IMG/VR virus record: IMGVR_UViG_3300021256_000003
Location: 128,001-175,026 of that record
Strand: one strand, 5' to 3'
Length of the DNA stretch: 47,026 nt
Source: a virus
Taxonomy: Duplodnaviria; Heunggongvirae; Uroviricota; Caudoviricetes
The translations under genes and the position numbers were made by a program. Of the stretch, positions 22,698-42,688 are shown piece after piece (the stretch's first letter is position 1; each line of letters starts with the position of its first letter). The notes below the pieces were generated by a model. It had not been told where the DNA came from, did not search any database, and worked only from the letters and a program-made list of their open reading frames with translations.

Positions 22698-23336
22698 ATG
22701 GCACAGACCGTTCGCGACACTATCAACAATGAGAAGTTTGCTAACCTCCACATCGACGAGGCCAACCTGCAGCAAGTGCTGAATCTGTTGGTCGACCAAC
22801 GTAAGAAGGCTGATCCCAACTTCGACGCTGCCAATCTTGACTTGGTGGCTCTCCTCGATGACGCTATCAAACGTCGCCGCTTCATGCCGACACCTGATGG
22901 CACCTACACCATCAAGGAAGCCTTCGTCTTCTTTTCCGTCTACGAGGACAGAAATGGGCTGTCGCAGCTCTCTGTCCATCGTGCTTATCGCATCACCGAC
23001 GGTAAGTCTGACTACCAGTTGGAGTGCACCAACTGGGGACAAGAGAGGACACGCTACACCATCAAGGGCAATCCTGTGGTGCTGCCATTCGTTGTTAGCA
23101 ACAACAACCTGATAAAGATGTCAGGTAACGGTGCTGCCAGCGAGTGGATACAGCAGACAGTTCCGCAGTTGGTTGGAGCGACTATCAAGGTCACCAACCA
23201 CAATCAGCCTATCGACAAATACACGCCGAAAGAAGGCCGTGATTTTCAATCTGTCCAAGTAAGACAGGTTGATATCGTCCGTCTGAAGGATGAGCAGGCT
23301 GATGAACCTGCGTCCACGTGGAAGAAACTTGAGTAG
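22698..23336 (+). CDS. GC-rich early hypothetical protein; TAG apparently used as stop
   Basis: 212 aa ORF followed directly by a terminator. Confidence 0.8.
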   Translation: MAQTVRDTINNEKFANLHIDEANLQQVLNLLVDQRKKADPNFDAANLDLVALLDDAIKRRRFMPTPDGTYTIKEAFVFFSVYEDRNGLSQLSVHRAYRITDGKSDYQLECTNWGQERTRYTIKGNPVVLPFVVSNNNLIKMSGNGAASEWIQQTVPQLVGATIKVTNHNQPIDKYTPKEGRDFQSVQVRQVDIVRLKDEQADEPASTWKKLE

Positions 23337-23350
23337 TCTGCTATCTACCG

Positions 23351-23386
23351 ACCTCGCTGCCTACGGGTGGCGAGGTTTTCTTTTTT
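23351..23386 (+). terminator. Intrinsic terminator
   Basis: ACCTCGCTGCC-TACG-GGTGGCGAGGT then T-tract. Confidence 0.8.
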
Positions 23387-23930
23387 CCAACAAGATAGTT
23401 TAGTCTCATTAACTAGTCACATTAATATTCAATCCAGCACAATAACTAGTCAAATGTATATAAGAATTAGAATTAGAGCAGTGTATGTATACTGCGAATA
23501 CGGTCGAGTATAAATCGTATTAATTAAATTCGCGTAAAAATCTTATGCGTTAATAGGTAGAATATCTTGGAACTTTCATTCCGTCAAGAGAAGGTAACTA
23601 TTTAACACATAAGTCGCCTCCAGATCTGCAGTTGGAGGTGTATAGATATAAAAAGGAATGAACGGAGTAATCTCACGAAATTTAGAGATAATCGTGCAAC
23701 TCACACGTTACTGTTATTAATAACTTTTATAGAATAAACGGCTATAAGAGGTTGATACAGTAGACAAGTCAGCCGTTTATTGATTTGTCTTAACTCTTAT
23801 GGTGAATTGGAGAATTTGCATCGCGACATAAGAGTTTTTCTTCTAGACACGTAGAGAATATTGTCTAGAGGAACTATTCCCTCTACATGAGGGGGGGGAG
23901 ATCATAAAAATTTAAAAAAATAAATTAAAA

Positions 23931-24461
23931 ATGGCACAAGTAAAACAAGAAAAAGCCTATATCGAAACCGTTCTCGGACGGAACGATAAGGTCGCTGAGA
24001 ACCAGGCTTGGTCTGGCAGCGTAAGAAACATCGATGGCGCCGAGAACGCACGTAAGGGTGATTCCTTTGTGATTCCTGCCAATCCTATTATCTGTGAAAC
24101 TGAACTCAACGGCAATCCCTATCAGTATTGCATTGTTGAGCTTACCAAAGCAGGTGGTGAAAAGGTTCCCATGCGCTTCTTCCCGAACATGCTGGCAAAG
24201 GTTGCCATGTCTCGCGATGCCGAGGGTAACACTCTTGGCCGTGTGAAGACCAGTGGCAGTGCTGCTGCTAAGTTCCAGGAGTTCCTTGGTCAGGAAAATT
24301 CCATGCAGAAAGCTATGGACGCTCTTGCTGGTAAGACCATTAAGGTTTCCGACGAGCAGGAAGTGAGCATTCTTCCGTATGGCAAGAGCCAGGCCGATCT
24401 GAAGAAGGGTGATGCTGTTCTTCAGAAAACTCGCGTCTTCGTTTACGATTTGGTTGCTTAA
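23931..24461 (+). CDS. Early hypothetical protein
   Basis: 176 aa ORF, A-rich leader, biased codon usage. Confidence 0.8.
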   Translation: MAQVKQEKAYIETVLGRNDKVAENQAWSGSVRNIDGAENARKGDSFVIPANPIICETELNGNPYQYCIVELTKAGGEKVPMRFFPNMLAKVAMSRDAEGNTLGRVKTSGSAAAKFQEFLGQENSMQKAMDALAGKTIKVSDEQEVSILPYGKSQADLKKGDAVLQKTRVFVYDLVA

Positions 24462-24490
24462 GCCAATCGTTGTGGTTTAACAAGTTAGGG

Positions 24491-24532
24491 AAAAGAGAGA
24501 CTATGTATTAATTTATGTAGTCTCTCTTTTTT
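24491..24532 (+). terminator. Intrinsic terminator
   Basis: AAAAGAGAGACTATGTA...TATGTAGTCTCTCTTTTTT. Confidence 0.75.
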
Positions 24533-24538
24533 AAATCT

Positions 24539-24736
24539 ATGAAGAAAAATCTAATAACAATTTATGGCGAAAAGAGAGGTAATTATATATTAACACCTCA
24601 TTTTCGTAGATATTATTTAGATTTTGAACATTCTAAAACACAATTCTTTGAAAATCAACAAGTTGCATATTGGCAACTTCAGAGAGTTCAATCTGGCCAA
24701 TATCAGATCGTAGGTCGAATATTTGCACAATCGTAG
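24539..24736 (+). CDS. Hypothetical protein
   Basis: 65 aa ORF ending TAG TGA. Confidence 0.5.
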   Translation: MKKNLITIYGEKRGNYILTPHFRRYYLDFEHSKTQFFENQQVAYWQLQRVQSGQYQIVGRIFAQS

Positions 24737-25196
24737 TGAATATATTGTGTAAGTACTAGTTGAAAAGACACAATAAATGAAGTAGAATATGTAGTTAGAT
24801 ATGCTCATTTCAAATTAGCTTTAAAAACACTTCTTAAAGTCAATAATTGATCTGACATGACAAAATGTCAGTTTTCATGACATAGAAGTATTATTGAAGA
24901 TATTTGAATGTGTATATACTGACAAGCATATGACAATTTGTCAAAATGATAGTTAAAGATGTCATTTTGAAAAAATTTTTAGAAATAATTTTGATGAAAA
25001 GGGAAGAGAAAGAGAGGACATGACCATCTTCTACCTTTATCCTTATTTCCTCAATTTTTTATTTTTTTACCAAATTGTCGGCTATACATATCATACTTTA
25101 TTTTTCTTGATTAAGAAAGTCCTTTAATTTCCATGTAAAAATAGTAAACTTGCCAAGGGATTAATTTCCCTAAAAAGACCACGAGAGTTGGTGGTC

Positions 25197-29196: not shown

Positions 29197-29293
29197 ACTA
29201 GTAGCCACTAAGTATTATTACTTAGCTGAACGGAATCAGGTATCTAGATGGTATTTGATTGGAATATGAAGGTTCGACTCCTTCCTACTAGTC
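29197..29293 (+). ncRNA. tRNA-like RNA with elongated D and anticodon arms
   Basis: ACTAGTAG/CTACTAGT acceptor, T arm GAAGG-TTCGACT-CCTTC, 11-bp central stem. Confidence 0.6.
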
Positions 29294-29438
29294 TACTATT
29301 ATGCGTAAATGATGTGTTGATTGTGGGAAGGCTAGTCTAATAAGAGAAATCAAGTTAGGCTAGTCTTTTATTTTGAAAGTTCTTTAAATTTATATATTAT
29401 AAATTAGATAAATATTTGTTTAACTAAATTTTTATATT

Positions 29439-29819
29439 ATGTTAGAATTATTTAAATCTGATTTATAGATATGTGAAGAATATTCAAAATTTATTAATAA
29501 TCGATATTTCAGAAAAGCATGGTGGAATGTAGGTTTTACATCTAAAAGAGAATAGGAATTACATTATGAAAATACTCCTCGTCCTTGTATAGTGATGAGG
29601 CCAGTACGTAATACTTTTCCAGCATATCTTGCTTATTATATTTTAAAGCATAAATTAAATGCTTATGATGCTAGGTAGTATGTTAAAGGATGTATAAACT
29701 CTGCGAAAAAGAAATATCCAACAAAAGCTCTAAAAAATTGGATTAGAAGTGAAGTTGATAGGTATTTACAATTATATACTAATTCAACTTATCCTCAATT
29801 ATATAAACATTTTAAATGA
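29439..29819 (+). CDS. Hypothetical protein (126 aa, 3 TAG=Gln)
   Basis: Open only under TAG=Gln; ATGA overlap with next gene. Confidence 0.65.
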
Positions 29820-29980
29820 AAGCAAAAGACTTGCGAGTTGGAAATGTTTTCTTATATAACAAAATTAAATATAGAGTTATGGAGAAAATGATTTCTGATA
29901 TAAAAACATGGAACTTTACATTTAACAAGTGGTCTAGAGTTCCTAACTCAGTAACAGTTAAAAAGATTTCACAGCTATGA
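29816..29980 (+). CDS. Small hypothetical protein (MKAKDLRVGN...)
   Basis: 54 aa, ATGA-coupled on both sides. Confidence 0.5.
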   Translation: MKAKDLRVGNVFLYNKIKYRVMEKMISDIKTWNFTFNKWSRVPNSVTVKKISQL

Positions 29981-30094
29981 TAGATATATTTGATATTATC
30001 TTGATTGTATTATTAGGATTAACCTGTCTTGGTACACTTACCTTGGCAGGTTTAATTTTATATGATATAATCAAAAACAAACATAATCCGCTTA

Positions 30095-30334
30095 ATGATT
30101 TGTGATGATGTACTAGATTTTGTAAATCCTATTATTGACATTCTTCAGAGATGTTATAATAAAGGACAGCAAAATCTATGGCATAAAGCTTCTGATGGTT
30201 TACCAACTATCCAAGGAAATTATCTTGTATATACTAAAAAGTATGGTTATTTTGTAGCTACATTAGATAGTATATGGGATGATGTTGAATACTGGATGAG
30301 AATAGTAGATCCTACTCAAATAGATCAATTGTAA
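30095..30334 (+). CDS. DUF551-like hypothetical protein
   Basis: WHKASDGLP...YLV...V.YWM.I pattern. Confidence 0.55.
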   Translation: MICDDVLDFVNPIIDILQRCYNKGQQNLWHKASDGLPTIQGNYLVYTKKYGYFVATLDSIWDDVEYWMRIVDPTQIDQL

Positions 30335-30346
30335 AAACAATTATAA

Positions 30347-30784
30347 TTGACTATTATGTCTGACACAATTGGTGAAAATAAAATTAAACTAATATCTGAT
30401 ATCCTACAAAACCTGGAATTAGATGAAATTCATAAACTCTTTGAAGATAATCATTGGACATGGTGGAATATTGGTGTTCCTAGTAAAGCAACTATTGCTA
30501 AGGAAATTAGTGACAATCTCTCATCAGTATATGATAGAGGTGTAGCTTATCTTCAAAATAGAGTGAAAGCTTATCAAGTGTTTCATACAGATTGCCCGAA
30601 TGATATAGCCTTAAGAAATATTTTAGAAGATGAGGGCTATACTATATTTCGTATAGAAACTGGACGATTTGAATATCGATATAATCTTGAACGGGAGGAT
30701 TCTACCATTCGAGAAATTCTTGAAGTTAGACTTGTTCCTATTTCTGTAGAATCTTGGAGTGACGAAATAAACAATATCAAATGA
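30347..30784 (+). CDS. Hypothetical protein
   Basis: 145 aa ORF. Confidence 0.65.
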   Translation: MTIMSDTIGENKIKLISDILQNLELDEIHKLFEDNHWTWWNIGVPSKATIAKEISDNLSSVYDRGVAYLQNRVKAYQVFHTDCPNDIALRNILEDEGYTIFRIETGRFEYRYNLEREDSTIREILEVRLVPISVESWSDEINNIK

Positions 30785-31146
30785 TACAGATAGGTAGTTG
30801 GATGTTATTCCAAGACAAGGAAGGTAATTGGAAAGAGAGTCAGGTAACTCTTCTTAATGATGAAGGAGATATATTTTATGAGTTAGGATGTCCTAATGAT
30901 GTAAAACCTATTCCTTTAACCGAAGAAATTCTTTTAAATAACAATTTTGAAAAAGCTGATGAAATGTGTTTTATAGGACCTAATCATATATTGGTAACTC
31001 TTTTCCCAGATTATCCAGAAATGATTTACAATGTCCCTGATGCGTATACAGCAGTCAATTGTTATTATGTTCATACACTACAGTTTTATTATAAAGCTGC
31101 ATTTAATAAAGATTTAAAACTAATTTTTAATGGAAAGAATAATTAA
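30781..31146 (+). CDS. Hypothetical protein, paralog of 41447..41836
   Basis: IG.W...PIPLTEEIL..N.F...YVH.LQ shared. Confidence 0.7.
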   Translation: MIQIGSWMLFQDKEGNWKESQVTLLNDEGDIFYELGCPNDVKPIPLTEEILLNNNFEKADEMCFIGPNHILVTLFPDYPEMIYNVPDAYTAVNCYYVHTLQFYYKAAFNKDLKLIFNGKNN

Positions 31147-31804
31147 TGAAATCCACGAAGAGGATGGTTCTCCCAAGGCTGAAATGGCTGTCGAAAGCCC
31201 TTCTATTATAGAGCAATGTACTGAAAACTCTTCAAAAGATGAAGACGAAGATGAAGAAGAGAATGTCGAAGAGAGACCTTCACCTGATGCAGGAGTTGGA
31301 GATTACGTTGTAATTGATCGATTTCGGGAATATGATGAATCCCAATATAGATGTTCTTTTACTGAAGAAATGGTAGATCAATACGGCAATAAAGTATTGG
31401 TTGTAAAACGTAATTTGTTTGATGGAAAAGATAACGATTGTGTTGAAGATGATTGTCACAAGTATGATTTAGTTGACTTGTATGGCCGAAATATAATGTA
31501 TACTTGGGCAAGTAGTATGTTTACTCGTATATCATCTCCTGAAGATATAAGACAAAGAACTCTTGAAGGTTTTAGTAGAGAATTACTTGCATTTCATCAT
31601 TTACTTGAAAATTACTTACTTAGTCCTTTAAAAGTCGGAGTCTATCAATCCAGCAAAATTTATAGTATTATGTTTGATGATAATAGTTGGCATGTTGAAA
31701 GTGACTGTAAAGGTGCTATCTTTAATTTCCCTGCCGAAGCTGAAGCTCTAACTTTCTACAGAAACAATTATCGTGATTTTCAAGTAGCAGGAAGACTATT
31801 TTAA
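31130..31804 (+). CDS. Hypothetical protein with acidic N-terminus
   Basis: 224 aa ORF. Confidence 0.7.
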   Translation: MERIINEIHEEDGSPKAEMAVESPSIIEQCTENSSKDEDEDEEENVEERPSPDAGVGDYVVIDRFREYDESQYRCSFTEEMVDQYGNKVLVVKRNLFDGKDNDCVEDDCHKYDLVDLYGRNIMYTWASSMFTRISSPEDIRQRTLEGFSRELLAFHHLLENYLLSPLKVGVYQSSKIYSIMFDDNSWHVESDCKGAIFNFPAEAEALTFYRNNYRDFQVAGRLF

Positions 31805-31805
31805 T

Positions 31806-32081
31806 ATGCAAGTTAATGTTGGCCAAATAGAAGACCAAGAGGTAATTTATATCCCTGAAAGAGATGTAATCTTTTGTAAGAATACAGTTGTTCCCTACAA
31901 TGTTATTCGTCTTCTCCTGAAAAGTTCTTCAAGTCGTGAAGAACTCCCTGAAAAAAATCTAGTAATTACTAAAAATAGTTCTAATGTTTCACTTGGTTGT
32001 TTAAATACAACTATGTCTAACATTTGGACTATTGATAAAAATATTAAAAACATAAAATCCTCATGGAAGAAAAGAAATTAA
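31806..32081 (+). CDS. Hypothetical protein coupled to the AAA ATPase
   Basis: 91 aa ORF. Confidence 0.65.
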   Translation: MQVNVGQIEDQEVIYIPERDVIFCKNTVVPYNVIRLLLKSSSSREELPEKNLVITKNSSNVSLGCLNTTMSNIWTIDKNIKNIKSSWKKRN

Positions 32082-33502
32082 TTGGTAGAACTTCTCTCAT
32101 AAAGCGGAGAACAAACGCTTATGAACAGGAGTCTCGAAGAAAGTTTGTCGAGATTATGAATAATCCTCAGTTTACTTATAGTGACTGTTTGGATTACATC
32201 GACACTGAAATTAAGCAAGGTAAGCGTATGGCTCGCTTTGATTATAAACTCCGTTGTTTCAAAAATGATGGAATTTATCAGGTGAGTCAGGCTATCAACA
32301 AAGTCTTTGGTGCTGTGAACAGCATGGAAGATAAGAGTCCTTCGGGAGATAGCGATATCCAGACTGTAGATATCTGTCTCTCGGATGGCACTCGTACCAA
32401 GGCTCCTTATGGCAAAATTGCCTTGAATGGACTTGGTGAAGACGCTTATATTGACATTAACTATGATACTGATGAGCATATGCTTATCGTAACAGGTAAA
32501 TGTCAGATGCGTTATACTACAATCATTGACGACATTATGACTCAAGCTAATGAACTTCTTAAGACAAATTCGATCTATAAGAATCAAGCTCTTGAGATCA
32601 CTGATATCAATGAACCAAAGGTTCTTGATTTGTCTAATATTGACAATCAGCTGATGGTATTAAGCGACAGCACTAAATATGCGCTTCGCCCCATTGAAGC
32701 TCGCCTTCTTCAACCTAAAAACTGTGTTAATAAAGGCATTCCTCTCAAGTATGGAGCACTTCTTGAAGGAAATTATGGAACTGGTAAGAGCTTAATTGCA
32801 TTCAAACTGGCAAAGCAGGCTATTGAGAATGGCTGGATGTTTATCTATCTTAAAGATCCAACTCAGCTTGCAGAAGTTCTTCGTATGTCCCAAGTTATTG
32901 ACAAGAGTGGCTGGGGTGTTGTTGTCTTCGTTGAAGACGTTGATCAGGTTACTCGTGGTAACAGAGATGCTGCTATGCAGGATATCCTTAACACGCTCGA
33001 TGGTGGTGATACTAAGGGCATGAATGTCATTAGTCTTTTCACTACTAATCATATTGAGCTTATCGAACCTACTTTCTTGAGAGGTAAGAGAATTGGTTCA
33101 ATTATTTCTCTTGGTAGTCTTGATAAGAAGACTGCTGATGAATTTATCCGCCGTTCGTTTGCAGAAGAGTGTTATGTCATTAAAGACGATCTCACTGAAG
33201 TCTGTGAAATGGTGGAACGTGCCAATATTGTGCCTGCATTCATGGCAGAAATCATTGAATCTGTTAAATCTAATATGATTCTTGATAATGAGTGCGAAGT
33301 CAAGGCAGACTACCTTAAGTATGCTATTAAAGCATATGAGCATCAGGTACAATTGGCTCAAACTAAGAACATGTCAGAGACTGTTGAGCAGACTTTCATA
33401 AAATCAGCACAACAGCTGTTCTGTAAGGATCCCAAAAATTACCCAGCCTTCATCAAAATGATGGAAGATCATTGTGGTGAAGATATTAAAAACTTCCAGT
33501 AA
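32063..33502 (+). CDS. AAA+ ATPase
   Basis: Walker A GNYGTGKS, Walker B VVFVEDVD, LNTLDG, TTNH...LRGKRI. Confidence 0.9.
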   Translation: MEEKKLIGRTSLIKRRTNAYEQESRRKFVEIMNNPQFTYSDCLDYIDTEIKQGKRMARFDYKLRCFKNDGIYQVSQAINKVFGAVNSMEDKSPSGDSDIQTVDICLSDGTRTKAPYGKIALNGLGEDAYIDINYDTDEHMLIVTGKCQMRYTTIIDDIMTQANELLKTNSIYKNQALEITDINEPKVLDLSNIDNQLMVLSDSTKYALRPIEARLLQPKNCVNKGIPLKYGALLEGNYGTGKSLIAFKLAKQAIENGWMFIYLKDPTQLAEVLRMSQVIDKSGWGVVVFVEDVDQVTRGNRDAAMQDILNTLDGGDTKGMNVISLFTTNHIELIEPTFLRGKRIGSIISLGSLDKKTADEFIRRSFAEECYVIKDDLTEVCEMVERANIVPAFMAEIIESVKSNMILDNECEVKADYLKYAIKAYEHQVQLAQTKNMSETVEQTFIKSAQQLFCKDPKNYPAFIKMMEDHCGEDIKNFQ

Positions 33503-33604
33503 TTTTTAACAATTTTTAACTTTGAAGTTGTGGATTCTATATATAATATAGCATATTGAAAATTGATTAATAAGTCCTTCTGCCTGTAAATCAATATGCT
33601 AGGT

Positions 33605-33677
33605 GCGACGTAGGCCGAGCGGCTAAGGTTCCTGCCTTCCAAGCAGGTTTTGGTGAGTTCGACTCTCACACGTCGCT
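33605..33677 (+). tRNA. tRNA-Gly(UCC)
   Basis: GCGACGT/ACGTCGC acceptor, CCTGC-CT TCC AA-GCAGG. Confidence 0.85.
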
Positions 33678-34249
33678 CAAAAGGACATCCTGACAGTCCT
33701 TTATGGTAGTATTTTAGGCGAAATGATTAACCTAAATGAAAATTTCATGTTTTACCAAAGGAAATGTGAAACTACTACTGATTGCTGCATGATATTGATT
33801 AGTTATTTTATTGTTTGTATTGGACAAAAATCATCTTTGGAGGTTGTAAATTACCTATGAACTATCTACGTATTAAACTCAACACATAAAGAATAAGGAG
33901 TTGCTATACGAGAAGAAAATTTTATCGTTAGATATTCTCCTAGTGTCTAACGTATCCGCTTGCTGTAAAGTAATAGGAGAGAATATATCGTTGGTATCAA
34001 TCGAGCTTAGAAAAAAATTCTTCTAGAATTTAATAAATCCCAAATGGTTAGTCCATGCAACTTGATTGCAAGAAATTTAAGCACGGTTTAGGATTTTCCC
34101 ATTAGATTTCCCTATACTAATGATATATTCTTCTTTTGTCTAAAAAGTAATTCGTTGACATTTGTAACGTCAAGAATTATGTATTCTTTTAAGATTCTGA
34201 AACGGTGCTTGTTCACAAAAACAGTTAGAACTTTAGAATACTGAGGACA

Positions 34250-34322
34250 GTACTTCATTAACAAAATTAGTAATGTACCATAGAAATATGGGTCTACAGG
34301 TGCAAATCCTGTATGAGGTACA
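34250..34322 (+). ncRNA. tRNA-like RNA with a GAAA tetraloop instead of an anticodon loop
   Basis: GTACTTCA/TGAGGTAC, CCATA-GAAA-TATGG, ACAGG-TGCAAAT-CCTGT. Confidence 0.6.
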
Positions 34323-34355
34323 ATGGTCTTTAAGTATATCCTGAATACTTAGGTT

Positions 34356-34612
34356 GGCATTATCCATAAATGTACAGGTGTACTAGTAAACCGGAATTGA
34401 CTAGGGTTTATACCAGACCAGAGGTATACTCATTAAACTGGAGCTCTCTCGACGTCCAGATATAGGAGTAGTGATACTCGAGAGTGAGTACCATATGGGA
34501 AGCAGTCCACAGCTCTATATGGTTACAAGGAGGCCTTTCAGTAATGTTTAGGAGTTTTGCTGGGAACTACTTAGAGAAATGCTAAGAAGTAGGTGCGAAT
34601 CCTACTAATGCT
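34356..34612 (+). ncRNA. Large structured RNA closed by a tRNA-like acceptor/T domain
   Basis: GGCATTA/TAATGCT, GTAGG-TGCGAAT-CCTAC, internal helices and a pseudoknot. Confidence 0.5.
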
Positions 34613-34643
34613 CTGGTGGTGGAATGGTAGACACGAGGGACTT

Positions 34644-35436
34644 TAAAGATTAAAAACACTTGTAAATCTTATAACTGGAATTTTCTAATAGAAAGTTATT
34701 AAAGATTTTTAAGTAAAACATTATGTTTCTATTAAATACTCCATTTTTATTTGGTAGACAATGAAATTGTGTATACCTTTCATTATATGAAAAAGGTAAA
34801 TTATACAAAAGAATTGTTGGAGGAAAAAGTGAAAGATTGTTATTCTTTTGCTGAACTCTGCAGGAGATTAGGTTTAAAACCAGAAGGTTCTAATCCGAAA
34901 ACTGTAAGAAAAAAGATGGATGAATTTGGAGTAGATTATTCACATTTTACTGGACAAGGATGGAATACTTATAAACATCCTAAATTTGGTAATGGAATTC
35001 CTTTAGAATCTAGTCTTTGTGAACATAGTTCACTTTCTTCATGGAATGTAAAGAAAAGATTATTTGCTCATAAAATAAAGGAAAATAAATGTGAAAAGTG
35101 CGGACTTACTGAATGGTAGGGTAAGCCACTTGTATGTGAACTACATCATATAAATGGAGATCCCACTGACAATAGGATAGAAAATTTACAAATTTTATGT
35201 CCTAATTGTCATAGTTAGACCGACAATTTTAGAAATAAAAATAGAAACAGGGAGGTAATGAGTGCTCCTGAGGAAACTCAGGAAGTAGAAGCAGGCTAAC
35301 TCGGTGAAAGCTGTAGCCTCCCAAAAAATAAAATACAGTCAACGCCGAACTAATACAAATGCGTAGAGACTATATACCTGCTACCTAAGTCGTAAGATAT
35401 GGTAAAGACATAGTCCAATCGGGAGTAAACCCGATG
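34644..35436 (+). mobile_element. Group I intron (793 nt) with HNH ORF in the P1 loop
   Basis: U before the 5' site, terminal G; core AACTCGGTGAAAGC, CAACGCCGAAC, GTAGAGACT, AAGACATAGTCC; P2 TCCTGAG-GAAA-CTCAGGA. Confidence 0.88.
34787..35299 (+). CDS. Intron-encoded HNH homing endonuclease (170 aa, 2 TAG=Gln)
   Basis: CEKCGLTEW*GKPLVCELHHINGDPTDNRIENLQILCPNCHS*TDN. Confidence 0.88.
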
Positions 35437-35548
35437 AAAATCCCTTGCCCGCAAGGGCGTGTGGGTTCAAGTCCCACCCGGAGTACTAAATCCTACAATA
35501 ATCGATCGTAAAAAGTAGGTAAATACAAGAGTAGCTAACTTGTATTTT

Positions 35549-35625
35549 TACAGAGTAGAGGAATTATTAGACTCAGCTGCACGGAAACTGCAGGTCATTT
35601 GCTGGTGAGAATCCAGCCTCTGTAA
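35549..35625 (+). ncRNA. Atypical tRNA-like RNA (loop CGGAAAC, Phe-like GAA but G33)
   Basis: TACAGAG/CTCTGTA, CTGCA/TGCAG, GCTGG-TGAGAAT-CCAGC. Confidence 0.55.
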
Positions 35626-35707
35626 CTAAATAGTTGTATTACATTAGAAGATTTTATTTAATTCGTTTACTTTCTTCATTATAAATTTCTTCTGATTACA
35701 ACTTGGT

Positions 35708-35770
35708 ATTCCTAAAGAGAAGGCTCTGGAGTAATTACCAGATGATAGGTTCAAGTCCTATCTAGGAATC
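35708..35770 (+). ncRNA. D-armless tRNA-like RNA
   Basis: ATTCCTA/TAGGAAT, TCTGG-8nt-CCAGA, GATAGG-TTCAAGT-CCTATC. Confidence 0.55.
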
Positions 35771-36182
35771 TAACAAAGTCTTACAGGCGCAGCCGTTACT
35801 TGAAGTAATTCAAGGCATTCGATGCGGATAATTGTTTAAATAACCTTGATAGAATAAACAGCAAGGCATATGCTCCTTATTAATGGAATTTTGGTGACAA
35901 TAGCCAGCTAACGAGCTTTAAGGACATGAAGAAAACGGACTTTGTTTTTACAGTACGTAGTTTATGTAATGGGTTTGAGTCGTACAATAAACTATTACAG
36001 ACCTGTAAACGTTAAGACTATAGGAATAAGCATTACTGTACTTATTTAAAAAGAGAAAATCCTGTAGGAGTTTACATCATTGTACAATGTGTTCATTTTT
36101 AAAGGTTTTGATAAAAAGCAAAACTAAAAACATCAGAAATGATAATAAAAGAAGGTTTTAAATTTGTTTTCTTCTTTTACAT

Positions 36183-36254
36183 TGCGGGATAGAGCAGTGG
36201 TAGCTTACCAGGCTCATAATCTGGAGGTCGTGGGTTCGAATCCCTCTCCCGCTA
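36183..36254 (+). tRNA. tRNA-Met(CAU), initiator-like 1-72 mismatch
   Basis: CCAGG-CT CAT AA-TCTGG; TGCGGGA/TCCCGCT. Confidence 0.85.
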
Positions 36255-36309
36255 GAGAATAATGATAGAAACCTCCACGTGGTTATTCTCGGGTAATGCT
36301 AATTCTATC
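36255..36309 (+). ncRNA. Minimal HDV-like (theta) ribozyme at the tRNA 3' end
   Basis: P1 GAGAATA/TATTCTC, P2 GATAGAA/TTCTATC, P3 ACC/GGT, L3 TCCACGT, GG, J4/2 CTAA; G1 directly follows the discriminator. Confidence 0.85.
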
Positions 36310-36407
36310 GTAAAAATAAGTTTAATTTTAAATAGGAATAGAAAAAGTAAAATTAAACTTGATGCAACAAATTAAAGATAAATAAATCGGATTTATTAAT
36401 CCTATTT

Positions 36408-36481
36408 GTCCCTGTAGCTCAGCTGTATAGAGCAGCGGATTTCTAATCCGCGGGTCGTAGGTTAGAATCCTACCAGGGATA
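36408..36481 (+). tRNA. tRNA-Arg(UCU)
   Basis: GCGGA-TT TCT AA-TCCGC; GTCCCTG/CAGGGAT. Confidence 0.88.
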
Positions 36482-36498
36482 CTAGTAACACAAAAGCT

Positions 36499-36966
36499 AT
36501 GAAAAAGTTATTACTTATTTTATCTATTTTATTTAGTTTTAATGCTTATAGTCAAGGATATATTGGAGTTGAGGGAGGATTCAATATTATTAATCGACAA
36601 CCCACTATATCTGTTAAAGCGTTATTACATAGAATAGAATTAAATGTTATTTCTCAACCATTTAGTTTTTCAGATACTAAAGTTTCTAGATTCACTTGTG
36701 TAGGTGGTGGTTATTTATTACCAAAAATGTTTGTTGCCGGTGGTGGAGTTGGTACTATGCAGGAAATTCCAGAAATAATTACTCCTTATGGTGAAAGAGG
36801 TTGGAATGGAACATTAACAGGATGTTTATATTTTAGAAAATATTTTAATTTAAAGAAATCAATAGATATAACTACAAGTCTTACTGCAGTATATAAAGTC
36901 GGAATTATTCTTGGTATAGGATTTTCAGTCGGGTATTTAAAAGAAGAATATCAATATTTAAAATAA
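36499..36966 (+). CDS. Secreted outer-membrane beta-barrel-like protein
   Basis: Signal peptide MKKLLLILSILFSFNAYSQ, Gly/aromatic amphipathic strands. Confidence 0.6.
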   Translation: MKKLLLILSILFSFNAYSQGYIGVEGGFNIINRQPTISVKALLHRIELNVISQPFSFSDTKVSRFTCVGGGYLLPKMFVAGGGVGTMQEIPEIITPYGERGWNGTLTGCLYFRKYFNLKKSIDITTSLTAVYKVGIILGIGFSVGYLKEEYQYLK

Positions 36967-36972
36967 ATTGAA

Positions 36973-37407
36973 ATGGAATATAAAGGGTATACAATTGAGG
37001 ATGTAAGCTGGGTTAATCAGTCTGAATCTATTAGGCAAGATGACGATAATAGTATTGAATTGACTAGAGAAGAACTCAGAAAATATATTTTCTTAATTGA
37101 CGAAAAGGATAAAGAACTTACAAGTTTAGAAATTGAACATACTATTCCAACTATTGAATTTTATGGACAAGGATATGAATATAATCCTAATGGAGCAGAT
37201 CAAGAGCCTGAAAGTTATATTAGTTTAAACTGGAAACGTCGCGAAACATCTGAAGAAGCTTTTAAACGTATTGAAAAACGTAAAAAGGAAATTGAAAAGG
37301 AGATAAAGAACAATATTGCTAAAGAAAACGCTCGAAAACAGGCTGAAAAAATCGAAGCTGATCGTATGATTCGACATCTTAGATCATTAGGATATGAAGT
37401 CATATAA
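36973..37407 (+). CDS. Hypothetical protein with C-terminal coiled coil
   Basis: 144 aa ORF. Confidence 0.7.
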   Translation: MEYKGYTIEDVSWVNQSESIRQDDDNSIELTREELRKYIFLIDEKDKELTSLEIEHTIPTIEFYGQGYEYNPNGADQEPESYISLNWKRRETSEEAFKRIEKRKKEIEKEIKNNIAKENARKQAEKIEADRMIRHLRSLGYEVI

Positions 37408-37508
37408 CTTATATAGTTTATGGAAGAAGAATATATAATTTTTCAAACTTATCTTGATAAAGATAATGTATTTAGATATAGAATTATTTCTAGTTAAATC
37501 TAAATAAT

Positions 37509-37579
37509 TGTCCTATGGTGTAATGGTAGCACATCAGATTTTGGTTCTGCTTGTCCAGGTTCGAATCCTGGTAGGACAA
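37509..37579 (+). tRNA. tRNA-Gln(UUG)
   Basis: TGTCCTA/TAGGACA, TCAGA-TT TTG GT-TCTGC. Confidence 0.88.
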
Positions 37580-37586
37580 CAAAATA

Positions 37587-37761
37587 TAGTTCTATAGCAT
37601 AAACGGAAATGCGCATTTGATGAAGAATTTAATTATAGAAATATAATTATTAATTTGAAAAGATTGGCAATAGTTTTTTATGGTAGTGTATCTACTTGCT
37701 GCAATCGAAGTAAGTTCTTAACATGAATGAGATTAAAAGGTTCGATTCCTTTTAGAACTAC
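37587..37761 (+). ncRNA. tRNA-like RNA with about 100-nt insertion replacing the anticodon loop
   Basis: TAGTTCTA/TAGAACTA, D arm GCAT/ATGC, stem CATTT/GAATG, T arm AAAGG-TTCGATT-CCTTT. Confidence 0.65.
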
Positions 37762-37798
37762 AAAGGAAAATAATGTTAAACAATAAAAGATTAATACC

Positions 37799-38710
37799 AT
37801 GTGCTTATATGCAAAAGATTCAAAGCCTCGTGTGGCTACTAAAGACATTAAGGTCTATAAACACGTAAAATATGTTGATGTATCTTACAGAACAGCAATT
37901 ACTCCGCATCAAGAGACTACTTTTGAACTTGATAAAGAATTTATTCCAAAAGCAAAAGTAGCTAAAGGTACTACTACTTTTAAGTCTGGAGTGATTCATG
38001 CGTGTCTGTGGCCAGACGCTGACAGAGGGACTTGTCTTGAAGCATATATTCCCAAAGGTACTAATTATTGGATTGGTATTGATGGTTGTACTGTATGTGC
38101 TGAGAAACTCTTTGTTACAAGTAATGAAGTAGAAGGACCTGCATGTATGGATGTAGACTTAGCAAGAGAAATACTTGCAGATGTACCTACAGTTGAAGGG
38201 GTTACTATTGGTGAGTTTACTTCCGATGACTATATTGTTGTTGGATTTTATCAAAATGGTAAACCAATGATTGCTGATATAGCTAATATGATTCAAAGTG
38301 TTGCTATTGACAGAGAATATGATAGCAAAATTGATGAGTATTATAGCTATAATGAAGCTGCAAAAGACTTCAACGGAATATCCCATTGTGCAAAACACCC
38401 AAAAAGTGAAAGATATGAAGCGTTTAACGCAGTATCCAGACTTAGTCCCAAGCATTATATTCCTGCATGTGGAGAAATGAGAACTTTGTTATCTAACATT
38501 ATCTATATTGCAGCAAGTTGTGCTTTGAAGAATATACCGATTTCTATTTCTATGGAAGGTTGGTATTGGACGTCCTCGGGGGGCTCGTTGTACTGCAGTT
38601 GGTGCTGCTACATCCGCTCGGAGGGTGTCTACCAGGGCTGGGACCACAAGGTCTGTCGGGGCCGGGTCGTTCCCTTTGTTGCTCCTAATTCTATTTCTCA
38701 AAAAGAATGA
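37799..38710 (+). CDS. Two-domain protein with C-terminal C-type-lectin-like DGR variable region
   Basis: YIPACGE...WYWTSS...SW....G......K.....V.PF; abrupt GC-rich, A-poor segment 38560-38682. Confidence 0.7.
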   Translation: MCLYAKDSKPRVATKDIKVYKHVKYVDVSYRTAITPHQETTFELDKEFIPKAKVAKGTTTFKSGVIHACLWPDADRGTCLEAYIPKGTNYWIGIDGCTVCAEKLFVTSNEVEGPACMDVDLAREILADVPTVEGVTIGEFTSDDYIVVGFYQNGKPMIADIANMIQSVAIDREYDSKIDEYYSYNEAAKDFNGISHCAKHPKSERYEAFNAVSRLSPKHYIPACGEMRTLLSNIIYIAASCALKNIPISISMEGWYWTSSGGSLYCSWCCYIRSEGVYQGWDHKVCRGRVVPFVAPNSISQKE

Positions 38711-38933
38711 ATAAATTTGAACTTCACATAAGAAAATGGTTTAGAATATTCCTAATATCGACATTGGAAAAAGTTATGAAAAAATTAAATTAAATACACT
38801 TAATTGTTAAACCGCAAGTCGGGAAGTTGTTAAAAGCAACAATATTTAATTATGGGGAGATTTTATATAAATCAGTGCAATTAAGTGAAAAGAGTTTTAA
38901 GGCTTGTACTCTTGGCGGAAAACAAACCTATTT

Positions 38934-39006
38934 GCATCTTTAGCTCAGTAGGTTTAGAGCCATCTATTTTTAGGATGAGAGTTGGGTTCGAGTCCCAGAG
39001 GATGCA
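38934..39006 (+). tRNA. Atypical tRNA, anticodon UUU (Lys?) or pseudo-tRNA
   Basis: GCATCTT/AGGATGC, normal D/T arms, irregular anticodon arm CATCT-ATTTTTA-GGATG. Confidence 0.55.
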
Positions 39007-39086
39007 CAAAATCTATATGCTCCTATATTATAGAGCAATATCTCCTAAGTTCTTAGTGCAAATACAAAATCAAATTATATAATACA

Positions 39087-39344
39087 ATGGAAACAGAAAT
39101 TAAGGAATCTCTTTCTAATGAAGGTCTGATTAAAGCACCTATTTTCAGAAGAGAATCAAGAAAGCAAAATGTATGTCTTTGTGATAAATGTCCAGAGCGT
39201 TACCATGATTATTGGTGCGATACTGAAAGATGCGGGTTTGCTAAAGGAGTACAATTGCATGGACTATATTTTAGTGGTTATTATATTCCATTTAGAACAT
39301 GTCCAAAAAATGGAGAAGTCATTATTAAACAAGAAAATAATTAA
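39087..39344 (+). CDS. Cys-rich hypothetical protein
   Basis: 85 aa ORF. Confidence 0.6.
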   Translation: METEIKESLSNEGLIKAPIFRRESRKQNVCLCDKCPERYHDYWCDTERCGFAKGVQLHGLYFSGYYIPFRTCPKNGEVIIKQENN

Positions 39345-39351
39345 AATATTT

Positions 39352-39660
39352 ATGAAAATACCTATATATAATGAAGACACAATCCTTGAAGCAATCGAAG
39401 AAGAAGGGTTGGCAGGATGTGCATACGGATATAAAACTCCATTTTGCATCTTTATCTTTATAGAAGGTATGGAAAAGGATGAAATTTGGGAGAAATTTCC
39501 AACACCATTAATTGGTTTAGAAAATGCTCATTATGATATGAATACTTTAGAGCCTGTAAAATATTTTATGATTGATAAAGGCCCGTCTTTTGAACCTAGA
39601 ACTGATAGTAATGTATCTGGGTTAGAAGAGAGTATAGAATATTTTAATAAAGAATTTTAA
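39352..39660 (+). CDS. Hypothetical protein (MKIPIYNED...)
   Basis: Likely true start within ORF 39169..39660. Confidence 0.6.
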   Translation: MKIPIYNEDTILEAIEEEGLAGCAYGYKTPFCIFIFIEGMEKDEIWEKFPTPLIGLENAHYDMNTLEPVKYFMIDKGPSFEPRTDSNVSGLEESIEYFNKEF

Positions 39661-39841
39661 TAATGGATAAACGTTCAGATGCAATCGGCGATAAAGGTTG
39701 GCGAGGAAAGTGAGGTTGCGATAAACACAAAAACACTGTATGAAATAAAGCAGAGGTGCCTTTACCATTAAATTATATCTGTAAAATGATATAGCCTTTA
39801 TAATCCATTATTTTTTATAGTTTGTACTTAACAAACTAATT

Positions 39842-39914
39842 GCTCCTATGGTGAAATGGCTTATCACGTCGGACTGTTAATCCGTTATTTCTGGTTCGAA
39901 TCCAGATGGGAGCG
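39842..39914 (+). tRNA. tRNA-Asn(GUU)
   Basis: TCGGA-CT GTT AA-TCCGT; GCTCCTA/TGGGAGC. Confidence 0.88.
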
Positions 39915-39952
39915 CAATTTAATTTAAGAAACAACAAAACAGTACATAAATT

Positions 39953-40876
39953 ATGAAAGAATCAATTTTCTTTGCTAAACCTGGTGAAAAAGGTTTGAAT
40001 GAAACTAGTGCTGCTCATCTCTGTGCACTAGCAAACCAAATAGAGCTTGAAAACGAAACAGCACTCAATGAAATTTGTTTTGTAAATACTGAAGTCGCAG
40101 TTGTTGGCAATGCTCAAAATCTTCCAACCCAAGATGGAATTAAAGAAGACGAGTTTGATCTTATTGAAACTCGTCTAACTCGGATTGCTAAAATGCATCG
40201 TTTTATTGCGTGGTTTGCTGAAGCTAGAAAAGCTCTTGAAGCAGAGAAAGCTCAAGTAAGAGCACTTACTGTTGAAAAGTGGTGCAAACAACAGGGTATT
40301 GAATATCCAACATATCCTGAGCAGCCTAGTAAAGTAAATACTAGTGAATATGACGATGTTCTTAAAACTCTTAACGTCAAAGAGTATGAAGAGTATCTTG
40401 GTTTACAAGCAACTGCTGCAGTGTTTGGGAAATTTATTCATCCTGATCGGCCGATGGACACTGCACGAAAAGCTCTTCATTATGCTTTAAGTCATCCGTA
40501 TAAAACTCGTGGAGAAGGACGTGATACCACAGTTTATCATTCTACACCTTCTATTTCTGCACAGAAAGTTGATGCTAAGTTTGCTGTTCTGCAAAAGCTA
40601 TATAGGGAATATGAACAAAGATTAAATCGACTGAAAGCAGAAATTCGCAAGAAGCAGACAGCAATCAATGTGGAAGAAAACCACCAAAGTCATCTTCTTG
40701 AGGAACAGTTCCTTAAAGAATATGAAGTGTATAGAACTCGCGTCGAAGAGCTAAACCGTCAGTTCCGTGATTGGTTACTTGCTGAAAACGAGAGACTATC
40801 TAAAGTCAAGTTAGCTATTCCAAGCTCACTTGAAACAACAGTTGATTATCTCAATAAACTTGCTGATAATAACTAA
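39953..40876 (+). CDS. Long helical/coiled-coil hypothetical protein
   Basis: 307 aa ORF. Confidence 0.8.
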   Translation: MKESIFFAKPGEKGLNETSAAHLCALANQIELENETALNEICFVNTEVAVVGNAQNLPTQDGIKEDEFDLIETRLTRIAKMHRFIAWFAEARKALEAEKAQVRALTVEKWCKQQGIEYPTYPEQPSKVNTSEYDDVLKTLNVKEYEEYLGLQATAAVFGKFIHPDRPMDTARKALHYALSHPYKTRGEGRDTTVYHSTPSISAQKVDAKFAVLQKLYREYEQRLNRLKAEIRKKQTAINVEENHQSHLLEEQFLKEYEVYRTRVEELNRQFRDWLLAENERLSKVKLAIPSSLETTVDYLNKLADNN

Positions 40877-41146
40877 TAGGTTGTAGAACTTGGACCATAT
40901 TAAATCCTAATCTACATTTGTGTAAATAAGATTAAACACCTTACTATGTCTTGAAAACATATAATTTTGGATAAAATTTAGTGGACTCCATGTCTACGCA
41001 TACTTGGCTACATCAGCAAATATAATAACTTTTTATTTGGGATTCAGTCTCAGATTAAGGCTCAGTTGCTGGTGTAGGTCCTAGTTTTAAACTTTGTCTA
41101 CACTGTTTAATCTTATTTATAACTATTTTTACTCTTTATAGAGTGA

Positions 41147-41190
41147 AGGGAATTAGTTGGTATATAGTGGTTCAAATCCACAATTCCCTC
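41147..41190 (+). ncRNA. tRNA minihelix-like element
   Basis: AGGGAATT/AATTCCCT plus GTGG-TTCAAAT-CCAC with only a 12-nt linker. Confidence 0.5.
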
Positions 41191-42020: not shown

Positions 42021-42611
42021 GGAAAGTTGGCAGAGTTGGTTTAATGCAACGGTCTTGAAGCCAATTCGAGTGTTATGGCGAGAAATCCCATAGCAGAAGC
42101 ATCCCTAATTCGGTGAAAATCCTTCTCAAACTAAAGAAGAAACAGATAATAGCGCGATATTAGCGACTGTGACTGTTTACACTAACCAATAATGTGTAAG
42201 GACAACGCCGAGCTAAATTGAGAATATGCCTTTTACGTATAAATTTTCGGATTTAGTAAATCGTAAGAGATGGTTAGCCTACAGTTCTCATAAATGTGTA
42301 CAGACTATAGAGGTGCAGCCTAAGTTGAAATTTATGTTTATTAAGAAATACTGGTTGAAAGATACCGTAATAATTCAAAGAGAATAGAATAGTCTTTTTA
42401 AACATATCTTGCAAGAATTTCAATATGGTTATAACATAGTCGAGACTACAATAAAATTATCAGATTCAAGATAGTAAATAACCGTGGAATTCGGTCGCGT
42501 GTGTATAATCAAAGCTCGCGGAAAAGATGATTTTAGCTATGGTAACATAGTGTAGCAAGGAAAACCGTCGGTCGTTAATTCGGCCCGAGAGTTCGAATCT
42601 CTCACTTTCCA
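42021..42611 (+). tRNA. tRNA-Ser(UGA), split by a group I intron (exons 42021-42056, 42560-42611)
   Basis: Exons rejoin to ACGGT-CT TGA AA-ACCGT; GGAAAGT/ACTTTCC; long variable arm. Confidence 0.88.
42057..42559 (+). mobile_element. Group I intron (503 nt, no ORF)
   Basis: P1 CTTGAA/TTCGAG with U.G at the splice site; core AATTCGGTGAAA, CAACGCCGAGC, GTACAGACT, AACATAGTCG; terminal G. Confidence 0.88.
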
Positions 42612-42688
42612 CATTTTCTAAGTGCATCCTCCATTGAGGAAGGCAATCCTGGATTGTATAAGCAAGATCTTATGCAAACTAGGCTTTT

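What the first reader, a model, noticed from the sequence alone, without database searches (positions are those of the whole stretch)
29197..41190. Family of about 8 anticodon-less or remodelled tRNA mimics interspersed with real tRNAs
Seen: elements at 29197 (extended arms), 34250 (GAAA tetraloop instead of anticodon), 34356 (about 230-nt insert), 35549 (G33, odd T loop), 35708 (no D arm, 8-nt loop), 37587 (about 100-nt insert), 38934 (irregular loop) and 41147 (minihelix). All keep well-paired acceptor and T stems with mutually unrelated sequences, while the decoding arm is altered. That pattern argues for selection on the tRNA top half rather than random decay. Inference: an undescribed tRNA-mimic system, e.g. 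decoys for host anticodon nucleases or tRNA-targeting toxins, RNase P/Z processing punctuation, or scaffolds that release stable cargo RNAs.
Basis: partly seen in the sequence, partly recalled or inferred. Interest (0 to 1): 0.85.

Follow-up and report, generated by a model that had tools for sequence, protein, structure and literature searches.

The report
Non-decoding tRNA look-alikes in rumen phage
A 175-kb phage from ruminant guts carries tRNA-shaped RNA genes among its real tRNA genes that cannot read codons; three or four are kept by selection in related phages and most likely act as cutting signals for tRNA-processing enzymes, while the others are strain-specific odd tRNAs or, in one case, not a tRNA shape at all.

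Summary
The eight elements do not form one family. E1 (29197), E2 (34250) and E8 (41147) are real tRNA-shaped RNAs that cannot decode. Related phages at about 75% DNA identity keep them, with compensatory base-pair changes. E2 always has a 4-nt cap of variable sequence in place of an anticodon loop. E8 is an acceptor/T minihelix plus a D-loop-like strand, and its elbow pair changes on both sides in one relative. E5 (35708) probably has a homologue. E3 (34356) is not supported: its long-range acceptor helix is broken in relatives, and its T-like hairpin ends a conserved structured RNA of about 230 nt. E4 (Phe-like, G33), E6 (99-nt insert) and E7 (Lys, U37) occur only in this lineage, and E7 sits on a cassette that some strains lack. 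More distant relatives carry many further remodelled tRNA-like genes, so the trait is clade-wide.

These elements lie where real tRNAs lie: on the same strand as the genes and 15-85 nt before ORFs, or at the ends of conserved non-coding RNAs. The best reading (about 0.45) is RNase P/Z processing punctuation, as with plant mitochondrial t-elements or mascRNA. Nothing here supports decoys.

This scan has noted anticodon-less phage tRNA mimics on other DNA, usually beside a Pth2-like gene. No such gene is present here.

The parts
29197..29293 (+). E1: tRNA-shaped RNA with an 8-bp acceptor, a 5-bp canonical T arm, a long D-like hairpin, and an 11-bp 'anticodon' stem capped by 5 nt
   Evidence: MFE fold. 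It is conserved in L047, L051, L052 and L055: 30 pairs, 6 with changes on both sides, reached by 0/500 shuffles, and none when the partners are slid.
29330..29374 (+). Terminator-like hairpin (11 bp) followed by a U tract, just after E1
   Evidence: Read from the sequence. The stem covaries in R172, L051-L055. RNA-run contig depth falls after this bin while DNA depth stays flat (weak).
33683..34249 (+). nc1: conserved non-coding RNA region between tRNA-Gly and E2
   Evidence: Long identical blocks against L036, R172 and L037. Indels are not multiples of 3, and differences by codon position are 16/23/23. No Rfam family matches. An RNA contig of run X3 spans 33683-34252.
34250..34321 (+). E2: anticodon-less tRNA look-alike with an 8-bp acceptor, an unpaired D region, a 5-bp stem with a 4-nt cap, and a T arm with loop UGCAAAU
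   Evidence: Three lineages keep it, with compensatory changes in the acceptor and T stems. The cap is GAAA, UUAA or UUCA.
34375..34612 (+). E3 region: conserved structured RNA of about 230 nt that ends in an invariant T-like hairpin (34589-34605) directly before tRNA-Leu. It is not a tRNA with an insert.
   Evidence: Internal helices covary. In the proposed acceptor (34356-34362 with 34606-34612) only 66.7% of cells pair, 3 of 7 pairs are broken in 4-5 of 6 sequences, and no change is compensated.
35549..35626 (+). E4: complete cloverleaf with anticodon GAA but G33, a D loop without GG, T loop UGAGAAU and a long variable region
   Evidence: ARAGORN calls it Phe. Rfam tRNA gives no hit at E<=10. 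It is absent from R172, L051 and L054, and IMG/VR holds no match.
35708..35769 (+). E5: D-armless element with an acceptor, one hairpin with an 8-nt loop, and a canonical T arm
   Evidence: The probable homologue L054:6276-6330 / L051:16899-16953 shares the acceptor 7-mer, and its hairpin and T stem covary. The homology is judged by eye.
37588..37761 (+). E6: canonical acceptor, D, variable and T parts, with a 99-nt branched insert after position 31
   Evidence: ARAGORN -i; fold. It is absent in R172 and L058, where tRNA-Gln directly precedes the ORF. The insert has no group I core motif.
38934..39007 (+). E7: near-canonical second tRNA-Lys(UUU) with U37, sitting on a strain-variable cassette
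   Evidence: Rfam 42.8 bits. It is absent in L041 and R172. Strain X8 has a 1-nt deletion in the loop's T run. The cassette is bounded by a 14-nt repeat.
40879..41146 (+). Conserved non-coding stretch upstream of E8
   Evidence: It is conserved in L041, R172 and L058, and partly in the distant L042/L043, where the neighbouring protein is only 48% identical.
41147..41190 (+). E8: minihelix (8-bp acceptor plus 4-bp T stem, 12 bp in all) joined by a D-loop-like strand, 15 nt before the ATG at 41206
   Evidence: Four lineages are 94% identical here against about 76% in the flanks. The first T-stem pair is G-C, G-U or A-U. The G19:C56-like pair becomes A:U in L058.

Best explanation
The finding mixes three kinds of thing. 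(1) E1, E2, E8 and probably E5 are purpose-kept tRNA look-alikes that cannot decode. They keep the acceptor/T-arm stack and, in E8, the elbow, which is the part recognised by RNase P, RNase Z and the CCA-adding enzyme. The anticodon arm is sealed, lengthened or deleted. They are transcribed with the neighbouring genes and most likely act as processing punctuation. RNase P would cut at their 5' side and RNase Z at their 3' side. That would define the 3' ends of the conserved non-coding RNAs in front of them (nc1 before E2, the RNA before E8) and the short 5' leaders of the ORFs behind them (E8 to the ATG at 41206). Real tRNAs would do the same elsewhere in this region. (2) E4, E6 and E7 are lineage-specific variants of real tRNAs that occupy the same kind of position. 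E4 and E7 may still decode with altered anticodon loops. (3) E3 is the T-loop-like terminal hairpin of a separate conserved structured RNA. Shown: the structures, their conservation and covariation, their positions, and their spread in the clade. Inferred: cleavage by the tRNA-processing enzymes, and its use.
For: Structure under selection: E1 has 6 of 30 pairs changed on both sides, reached by 0/500 shuffles, and none when slid. E2 has 2 compensatory pairs plus one G-U change, and its 4-nt cap varies in sequence but not in length. E8 is 100% paired in 4 lineages, with a G-C/G-U/A-U series in the T stem and a both-sides change in the elbow pair. Its identity is 94% against about 76% in the flanks. 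Position: all sites are on the coding strand and none on the other strand. In 36-45 kb the leading ORFs follow a tRNA or a look-alike by 15-79 nt (Arg 16, E6 37, E7 79, Asn 37, E8 15, His 19). That is too little room for a promoter of their own, so they must be co-transcribed. In relative L042, six uncalled tRNA-like elements end 22-85 nt before the next called ORF. E2 and E8 follow conserved non-coding RNAs, and E1 is followed by a covarying terminator. RNA runs give weak support. RNA-library contigs from two studies stop at the T loop of tRNA-Met, tRNA-Leu and E8. Those of one study (X2) stop at the T loop of E2. DNA contigs run through all of these. One RNA contig spans 33683-34252, from just after tRNA-Gly to the first bases of E2. 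Precedent: tRNA-like t-elements with a conserved T arm direct RNase P/Z cuts that make mRNA ends in plant mitochondria (PMC1920247).
Against: No transcript end was mapped. Contigs cannot show RNA ends, and the libraries may contain DNA. Each conserved element has only 3-5 distinct sequences, mostly from two lineages, so the compensatory changes represent few independent events. For E8 the shuffle control is not significant (80/500). Any intergenic element in a dense genome lies close to the next ORF. E1, E2 and E5 stack 13-14 bp instead of the canonical 12, and E2 lacks the GG/T-loop elbow, so recognition by RNase P/Z is assumed, not shown. E8 and E2 were not found in the more distant relatives. 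E4, E6 and E7 have no comparative support at all.
Confidence: 0.45

Rival explanations
1. Decoys or sponges. The look-alikes would bind, and so titrate or mislead, host proteins that recognise the tRNA top half: tRNA-targeting defence nucleases or toxins, modification enzymes, EF-Tu or synthetases.
For: The conserved part is the acceptor/T/elbow region, while the anticodon end is free to vary. Phage tRNAs are known or proposed to counter tRNA-cleaving defences (PMC10264068; PMC11555353, listed). The phage invests heavily in tRNA biology: a full tRNA set, a suppressor tRNA and a tmRNA.
Against: Anticodon nucleases recognise the anticodon loop, which E1, E2, E5 and E8 lack. The neighbours show no defence-related or tRNA-repair gene. 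Each element is single-copy and differs from the others in sequence, which suits a stoichiometric sponge poorly. Positions tied to ORF starts and ncRNA ends are not explained.
Confidence: 0.15
2. By-products of array turnover. The odd elements would be decaying or rearranged tRNA genes, produced by recombination and homing-endonuclease activity in a fast-changing tRNA region, with no function of their own.
For: E4, E6 and E7 are absent from the sister lineages. E7 lies on a cassette bounded by a 14-nt repeat, and an 8-nt remnant of the tRNA-Asn 5' end lies beside it. Strain X8 has a 1-nt indel in the E7 loop. HNH genes and group I introns sit within the array. Gene content here differs between close relatives.
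Against: E1, E2 and E8 are more conserved than the flanking protein-coding DNA, and their changes are compensatory. The remodelled arms are perfectly paired extensions or caps, not eroded stems. E4 and E6 have no mismatch in any stem. The strict strand bias and the 30-fold excess over shuffles hold in relatives too.
Confidence: 0.2
3. E4 and E7 only: extra decoding tRNAs (Phe-GAA, Lys-UUU) whose altered anticodon loops (G33; U37) make them poor substrates for host anticodon nucleases.
For: Both have complete cloverleaves and 7-nt loops with sensible anticodons. Canonical Phe and Lys copies exist elsewhere in the genome. tRNA-Lys(UUU) is a classic nuclease target, and phage tRNAs with anticodon-loop changes are proposed to be insensitive to such nucleases.
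Against: In my own knowledge, U33 and a purine at 37 are near-universal requirements for decoding. E4 also lacks the D-loop/T-loop elbow bases and falls below Rfam detection. Both are dispensable in close relatives.
Confidence: 0.25
4. Non-ribosomal carriers or primers. The look-alikes would receive CCA and be charged, then donate amino acids to an enzyme, or they would prime a polymerase.
For: In my own knowledge, acceptor/T minihelices are substrates for several synthetases. Irregular tRNAs that are charged but not used in translation have been described (PMC5389517).
Against: There is no G3:U70, no G-1 and no encoded CCA. No tRNA-dependent enzyme was recognised nearby.
Confidence: 0.05

Closest known systems
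Plant mitochondrial t-elements (Hanic-Joyce 1990; Forner 2007, PMC1920247)
   Same: These are tRNA-like structures with a conserved T arm and a non-canonical cloverleaf. They lie between genes, are co-transcribed, and are used by RNase P and RNase Z to make mRNA 5' and 3' ends alongside real tRNAs. The position and architecture match E8, E5 and E6.
   Different: They occur in an organelle, not a phage. Their ends are mapped experimentally, whereas here nothing is mapped. There is no sequence relation. Some elements here also bound large conserved non-coding RNAs.
mascRNA / MALAT1 and MEN-beta 3' modules (Rfam RF01684)
   Same: A long non-coding RNA is followed by a small tRNA-like RNA with a degenerate anticodon loop. 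RNase P cleavage makes the long RNA's 3' end (own knowledge). The arrangement nc1 followed by E2 is the same.
   Different: That module is vertebrate and nuclear. Rfam gives no match here. Processing here is inferred.
Phage T4 stable RNAs species 1 and 2 (rnaC, rnaD) and T5 tRNA-region stable RNAs
   Same: These are small stable RNAs of unknown function encoded inside a phage tRNA cluster and matured with the tRNAs (own knowledge; the lead came from earlier scan notes).
   Different: I could not compare sequences or structures here. The T4 RNAs are not described as anticodon-less top halves placed in front of ORFs.
Irregular and allo-tRNAs from metagenomes (Mukai 2017, PMC5389517)
   Same: These are non-7/5 acceptor/T configurations (8/4, 9/3), also found in phage tRNA clusters and in rumen bacteria. 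Some are charged but not used in translation. E8 is 8/4 and E1 is 8/5.
   Different: Those tRNAs keep an anticodon arm and a 7-nt loop. E1, E2, E5 and E8 do not.
Phage tRNAs with anticodon-loop changes (van den Berg 2023, PMC10264068)
   Same: These are phage-encoded tRNAs whose anticodon loops differ from the host's and are proposed to escape anticodon nucleases. This is relevant to E4 and E7.
   Different: They are still decoding tRNAs with U33, and none lacks the loop.

Membership tests
Canonical tRNA (Rfam RF00005) | Score at or above the 29-bit gathering threshold | tested here: not met
   Only E7 passes (42.8 bits). E1-E6 and E8 give no tRNA hit even at E<=10.
Canonical tRNA (Rfam RF00005) | 7-nt anticodon loop with U33 and a purine at 37 | tested here: not met
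   E1 has a 5-nt loop, E2 a 4-nt loop, E5 an 8-nt loop and E8 no arm. E6 has a 99-nt insert, E4 has G33 and E7 has U37.
Canonical tRNA (Rfam RF00005) | Acceptor helix stacked on a T arm with a T-loop motif | tested here: met
   This holds for seven of the eight. It is not met for E3.
tmRNA (Rfam RF00023), considered for E3 | Match to the tmRNA model, with a conserved acceptor closing the tRNA-like domain | tested here: not met
   The window has no RF00023 match. The genome's real tmRNA is at genome 4032-4433 (96.5 bits). The E3 acceptor is broken in relatives.
tRNA gene with a group I intron, considered for E3 and E6 | Conserved catalytic core (J8/7-P7 motif), U before the 5' splice site and G at the intron's end | tested here: not met
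   The core motif occurs only in the Leu and Ser introns (35363, 42298). The E6 insert is 99 nt, below the size of known group I introns (own knowledge). The RNA runs list no joint across either insert.
t-element-type processing signal | tRNA-like fold with a conserved T arm, in an intergenic, co-transcribed position | tested here: met
t-element-type processing signal | Transcript ends coincide with the element's borders; cleavage by RNase P and RNase Z | tested here: inconclusive
   Only contig ends from RNA libraries are available. Enzyme cleavage cannot be tested with these tools.
Pth2-linked anticodon-less tRNA mimics noted earlier in this scan | Position directly behind a peptidyl-tRNA-hydrolase-like gene | tested here: not met
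   Pfam and PHROG scans of 20 neighbouring ORFs found an AAA ATPase, an HNH nuclease and a radical SAM enzyme, and no Pth2.

The most novel reading that the evidence does not exclude
This clade of 155-190-kb ruminant-gut phages runs its early region like a mitochondrial genome. Dozens of real tRNAs and purpose-built, non-decoding tRNA modules punctuate long transcripts. Some modules exist to release and cap large, so far unclassified structured RNAs (nc1, the E3 RNA, the RNA before E8), which would themselves be new functional phage RNAs.
Probability: 0.3. Interest if true: 0.8.

Novelty: new variant of a known kind. Interest (0 to 1): 0.62.

Why it matters
Phage tRNA genes are usually discussed only as decoders or as spare parts against tRNA-cleaving defences. 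Here a phage clade keeps tRNA shapes that cannot decode, under selection, at positions equivalent to real tRNAs. If they are processing signals, tRNA-punctuated gene expression, known from organelles, also operates in large phages. Genome annotation would then need to include such elements, and the conserved non-coding RNAs they flank become candidates for new phage RNA functions. If instead they are decoys or carriers, they would represent a new kind of phage-host interaction. Either outcome can be tested with end-mapping and with RNase P/Z assays.

Tried and rejected
- Megablast of 29-45 kb against GenBank phages found no match.
- Relatives found in IMG/VR and JGI through three proteins (G001-G005, L003-L008) share almost no synteny or DNA similarity with this region.
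- Exact-pattern scans of IMG/VR for E4, E5, E6 and E2 gave no hits.
- A covariance model of E8 found only the four sequences it was built from or their close kin.
- Rfam at relaxed thresholds gave only chance-level hits for the eight elements and the conserved non-coding stretches.
- The sigma-70 promoter scan was at shuffle level (73 against 71.1), and its terminator rule missed the E1 terminator because of its long loop.
- The ORF of 36499-36966 has no homologue other than itself, so it could not lead to relatives of E4-E6.
- The 102-aa ORF called inside nc1 in relatives is rejected as a gene: it shows no codon periodicity and has frame-breaking indels.
- E1 as a decoder is rejected. If its last stem pair is opened, the 7-nt loop reads AGA here and AAA in relatives, with A34 and U37.
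- The spliced tRNA-Leu junction in RNA runs cannot be credited to this phage. The same junction stands in a DNA run, and its contigs continue into GC-rich sequence unlike the phage.
- Stretches of the region without RNA-contig cover, and the absence of listed joints over the E3 and E6 inserts, carry no weight.
- Complex prediction, structure prediction and the protein atlas were not used because the question concerns RNA.


Full report
**Setting.** The window is the last 47 kb of a complete 175,026-bp virus record with direct terminal repeats. Late genes need TAG read as sense, and a CUA suppressor tRNA lies at 20025-20098. Runs holding near-identical DNA come from goat, sheep and cattle gut. 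The genome encodes a complete canonical tRNA set, including ordinary Phe(GAA) and Lys(UUU) copies outside the window, and a genuine tmRNA at genome 4032-4433. Two true tRNA genes in the window, Leu(UAA) at 34610-35486 and Ser(UGA) at 42021-42612, are interrupted after U34 by group I introns. Other notes of this scan cover them, and they are not among the eight elements.

- E7 is a good Rfam tRNA (42.8 bits) with U37.
- E4 is called Phe(GAA) by ARAGORN but has G33, no GG in the D loop and T loop UGAGAAU, and Rfam does not detect it.

The elements share nothing but T-loop letters.

**Relatives.** Public phage and IMG/VR records gave only distant relatives without synteny. Going through the protein clusters of the AAA ATPase (32063-33502) and the 307-aa protein (39953-40876) gave contigs at about 75% DNA identity with conserved gene order: L036, L051-L057, a 172-kb contig (L047 and L048, called R172 here) and L058. 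The same route gave a 96% strain (L041) and a more distant phage (L042).

**E1.** Four relatives keep it. Of 30 pairs, 6 changed on both sides and stayed paired: one in the acceptor, one in the D-like hairpin and four in the long 'anticodon' stem. No shuffle of 500 reached this, and slid partners gave none. The T arm is invariant. A hairpin with a U tract follows at 29330-29374, and its stem covaries too. If the last stem pair is opened, the loop reads AGA here and AAA in relatives, with A34 and U37, so decoding is not what is conserved.

**E2.** Three lineages keep it. One acceptor pair and one T-stem pair changed on both sides, and a third changed to G-U. The 5-bp stem is invariant. Its cap is always 4 nt but reads GAAA, UUAA or UUCA. 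The anticodon-less state is therefore the conserved state, and the GNRA sequence is not.

**E8.** Four lineages are 94% identical here, against about 76% around it. The 8-bp acceptor is invariant. The first T-stem pair runs G-C, G-U, A-U. In L058 the second G of the D-loop-like strand and the C of the T loop, the equivalents of G19 and C56, have both changed, to A and U. This points to a tRNA-type elbow, but with four sequences the shuffle control is not significant (80/500). The acceptor and T stems add up to the canonical 12 bp (8/4). The element ends 15 nt before the ATG at 41206, and the spacing is similar in R172.

**E5.** L054 and L051 hold a 56-nt element upstream of the same tRNA-Arg(UCU)-ORF pair. 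It has the same acceptor 7-mer, a different but paired middle hairpin that also has an 8-nt loop, and an A-U to G-C change in the T stem. I judged this homology by eye, and MAFFT did not align the acceptor well.

**E3.** The proposed 7-bp acceptor spanning 257 nt fails the test. Only 66.7% of cells pair, three pairs are broken in four or five of six sequences, and no change is compensated. The real feature is a conserved RNA of about 230 nt with covarying internal helices. It ends in two invariant hairpins, the second with a T-loop-like UGCGAAU, six bases before tRNA-Leu. It is not the phage's tmRNA.

**E4, E6, E7.** All are missing in the sister lineages. There tRNA-Leu is followed by a free-standing HNH gene, tRNA-Gln abuts the next ORF, and the E7-to-tRNA-Asn stretch is absent. 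Strain L041 lacks E7 together with two ORFs, and the cassette is bounded by a repeated 14-nt leader. An 8-nt remnant of the tRNA-Asn 5' end lies next to E7. Strain X8 has one T fewer in the E7 loop. All their stems are perfectly paired, but selection cannot be tested.

**Clade-wide pattern.** The same scan on relatives found many tRNA-like sites that ARAGORN does not call:
- L042 has eight in 20 kb. They include 58-63-nt forms without an anticodon arm, an extended-stem form and 100-126-nt forms with inserts, and the site count is 9 against 0.5 in shuffles.
- G001 has an element with a 4-nt cap and three tRNAs with 6-nt loops.
- L054 has further examples.

**Context and mechanism.** Neighbouring ORFs have no informative families and no Pth2-like gene, unlike the mimics noted elsewhere in this scan. 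Position is the consistent feature. In 36-45 kb each leading ORF follows a tRNA or a look-alike by 15-79 nt. In L042 six odd elements end 22-85 nt before the next ORF. Such gaps leave no room for a separate promoter, so these ORFs must be co-transcribed with the tRNA or look-alike in front of them.

E2 and E8 each close a conserved non-coding stretch. nc1 (33683-34249) shows no codon periodicity (16/23/23), has frame-breaking indels and matches no Rfam family. The stretch before E8 is conserved even where the adjacent protein is only 48% identical.

In two RNA libraries from different studies, contigs stop at the T loop of tRNA-Met (36230/36233), tRNA-Leu (35466) and E8 (41170/41171). In one of them a contig stops at the T loop of E2 (34302). 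DNA contigs run through all of these. One RNA contig spans 33683-34252, from just after tRNA-Gly to the start of E2.

The closest worked-out precedent is the plant mitochondrial t-element, a tRNA-like fold with a conserved T arm that RNase P and RNase Z use to make mRNA ends. The MALAT1/mascRNA arrangement, known to me from the literature, parallels nc1 followed by E2. I therefore favour processing punctuation (0.45). I found nothing for or against decoys beyond the general literature on phage tRNAs and defence. For E4, E6 and E7, array turnover without function remains a serious possibility.

**Verdict.** The 'family of eight' breaks down into:
- conserved non-decoding tRNA modules: E1, E2, E8 and probably E5;
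- lineage-specific tRNA variants: E4, E6, E7;
- one misread element: E3.

The kind of element has functional precedents in organelles and vertebrate nuclei. Earlier notes of this scan describe similar elements in other large phages in a different gene context. I know of no published account for phages of this type.

Noticed in passing
window 33683-34249: nc1 is a conserved non-coding RNA region of about 570 nt between tRNA-Gly and E2. It has long blocks identical to relatives and covarying hairpins, and no Rfam family matches. Gene callers place a spurious 102-aa ORF in it in relatives.
   Followed up: partly
window 34375-34612: A conserved structured RNA of about 230 nt lies directly upstream of tRNA-Leu. 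It has several covarying helices, and R172 carries a 57-nt insertion at its 5' side. Its class is unknown.
   Followed up: partly
window 40879-41146; L042:10936-11190: The non-coding stretch after the 307-aa ORF is conserved even in distant relatives. It includes a repeated CTCAG-containing core.
   Followed up: partly
window 35947-36188: The non-coding stretch upstream of tRNA-Met is conserved (75-81%) in R172, L051 and L054, although the DNA before it is entirely different.
   Followed up: no
window 42221-42408 (inside the tRNA-Ser intron): RNA-library contigs of two studies join 42221 to 42408 at very high depth (921 and 278). The intron also holds a second group I-like core motif at 42439. 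The cause may be a nested element or an abundant shorter variant.
   Followed up: no
genome 4032-4433 (outside the window): The phage encodes a full tmRNA (Rfam 96.5 bits). ARAGORN gives the tag as ending ...NERKAA.
   Followed up: partly
L042:11585-11661; G001 44331, 44848 and 45757; L054:5234-5323: Relatives carry otherwise good cloverleaf tRNAs with 8-nt or 6-nt anticodon loops. These may read four-base or two-base steps, or may not decode at all.
   Followed up: no
window 38921-39844: The cassette of E7 plus two ORFs is flanked by a repeated 14-nt leader and is missing in strain L041. In strain X8, 16 other letters replace 39008-39350.
   Followed up: partly
window 34610-34642 with 35437-35486: The exons of the phage tRNA-Leu(UAA) also occur joined, in RNA and DNA runs, on contigs whose GC-rich flanks are unlike the phage. 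This may be a bacterial, perhaps host, tRNA-Leu of the same sequence. Strain X8 and all sister lineages have an intron-less Leu gene.
   Followed up: partly
window 22000-25000: G+C rises to 0.38-0.43, against about 0.30 elsewhere, and few long ORFs are present.
   Followed up: no
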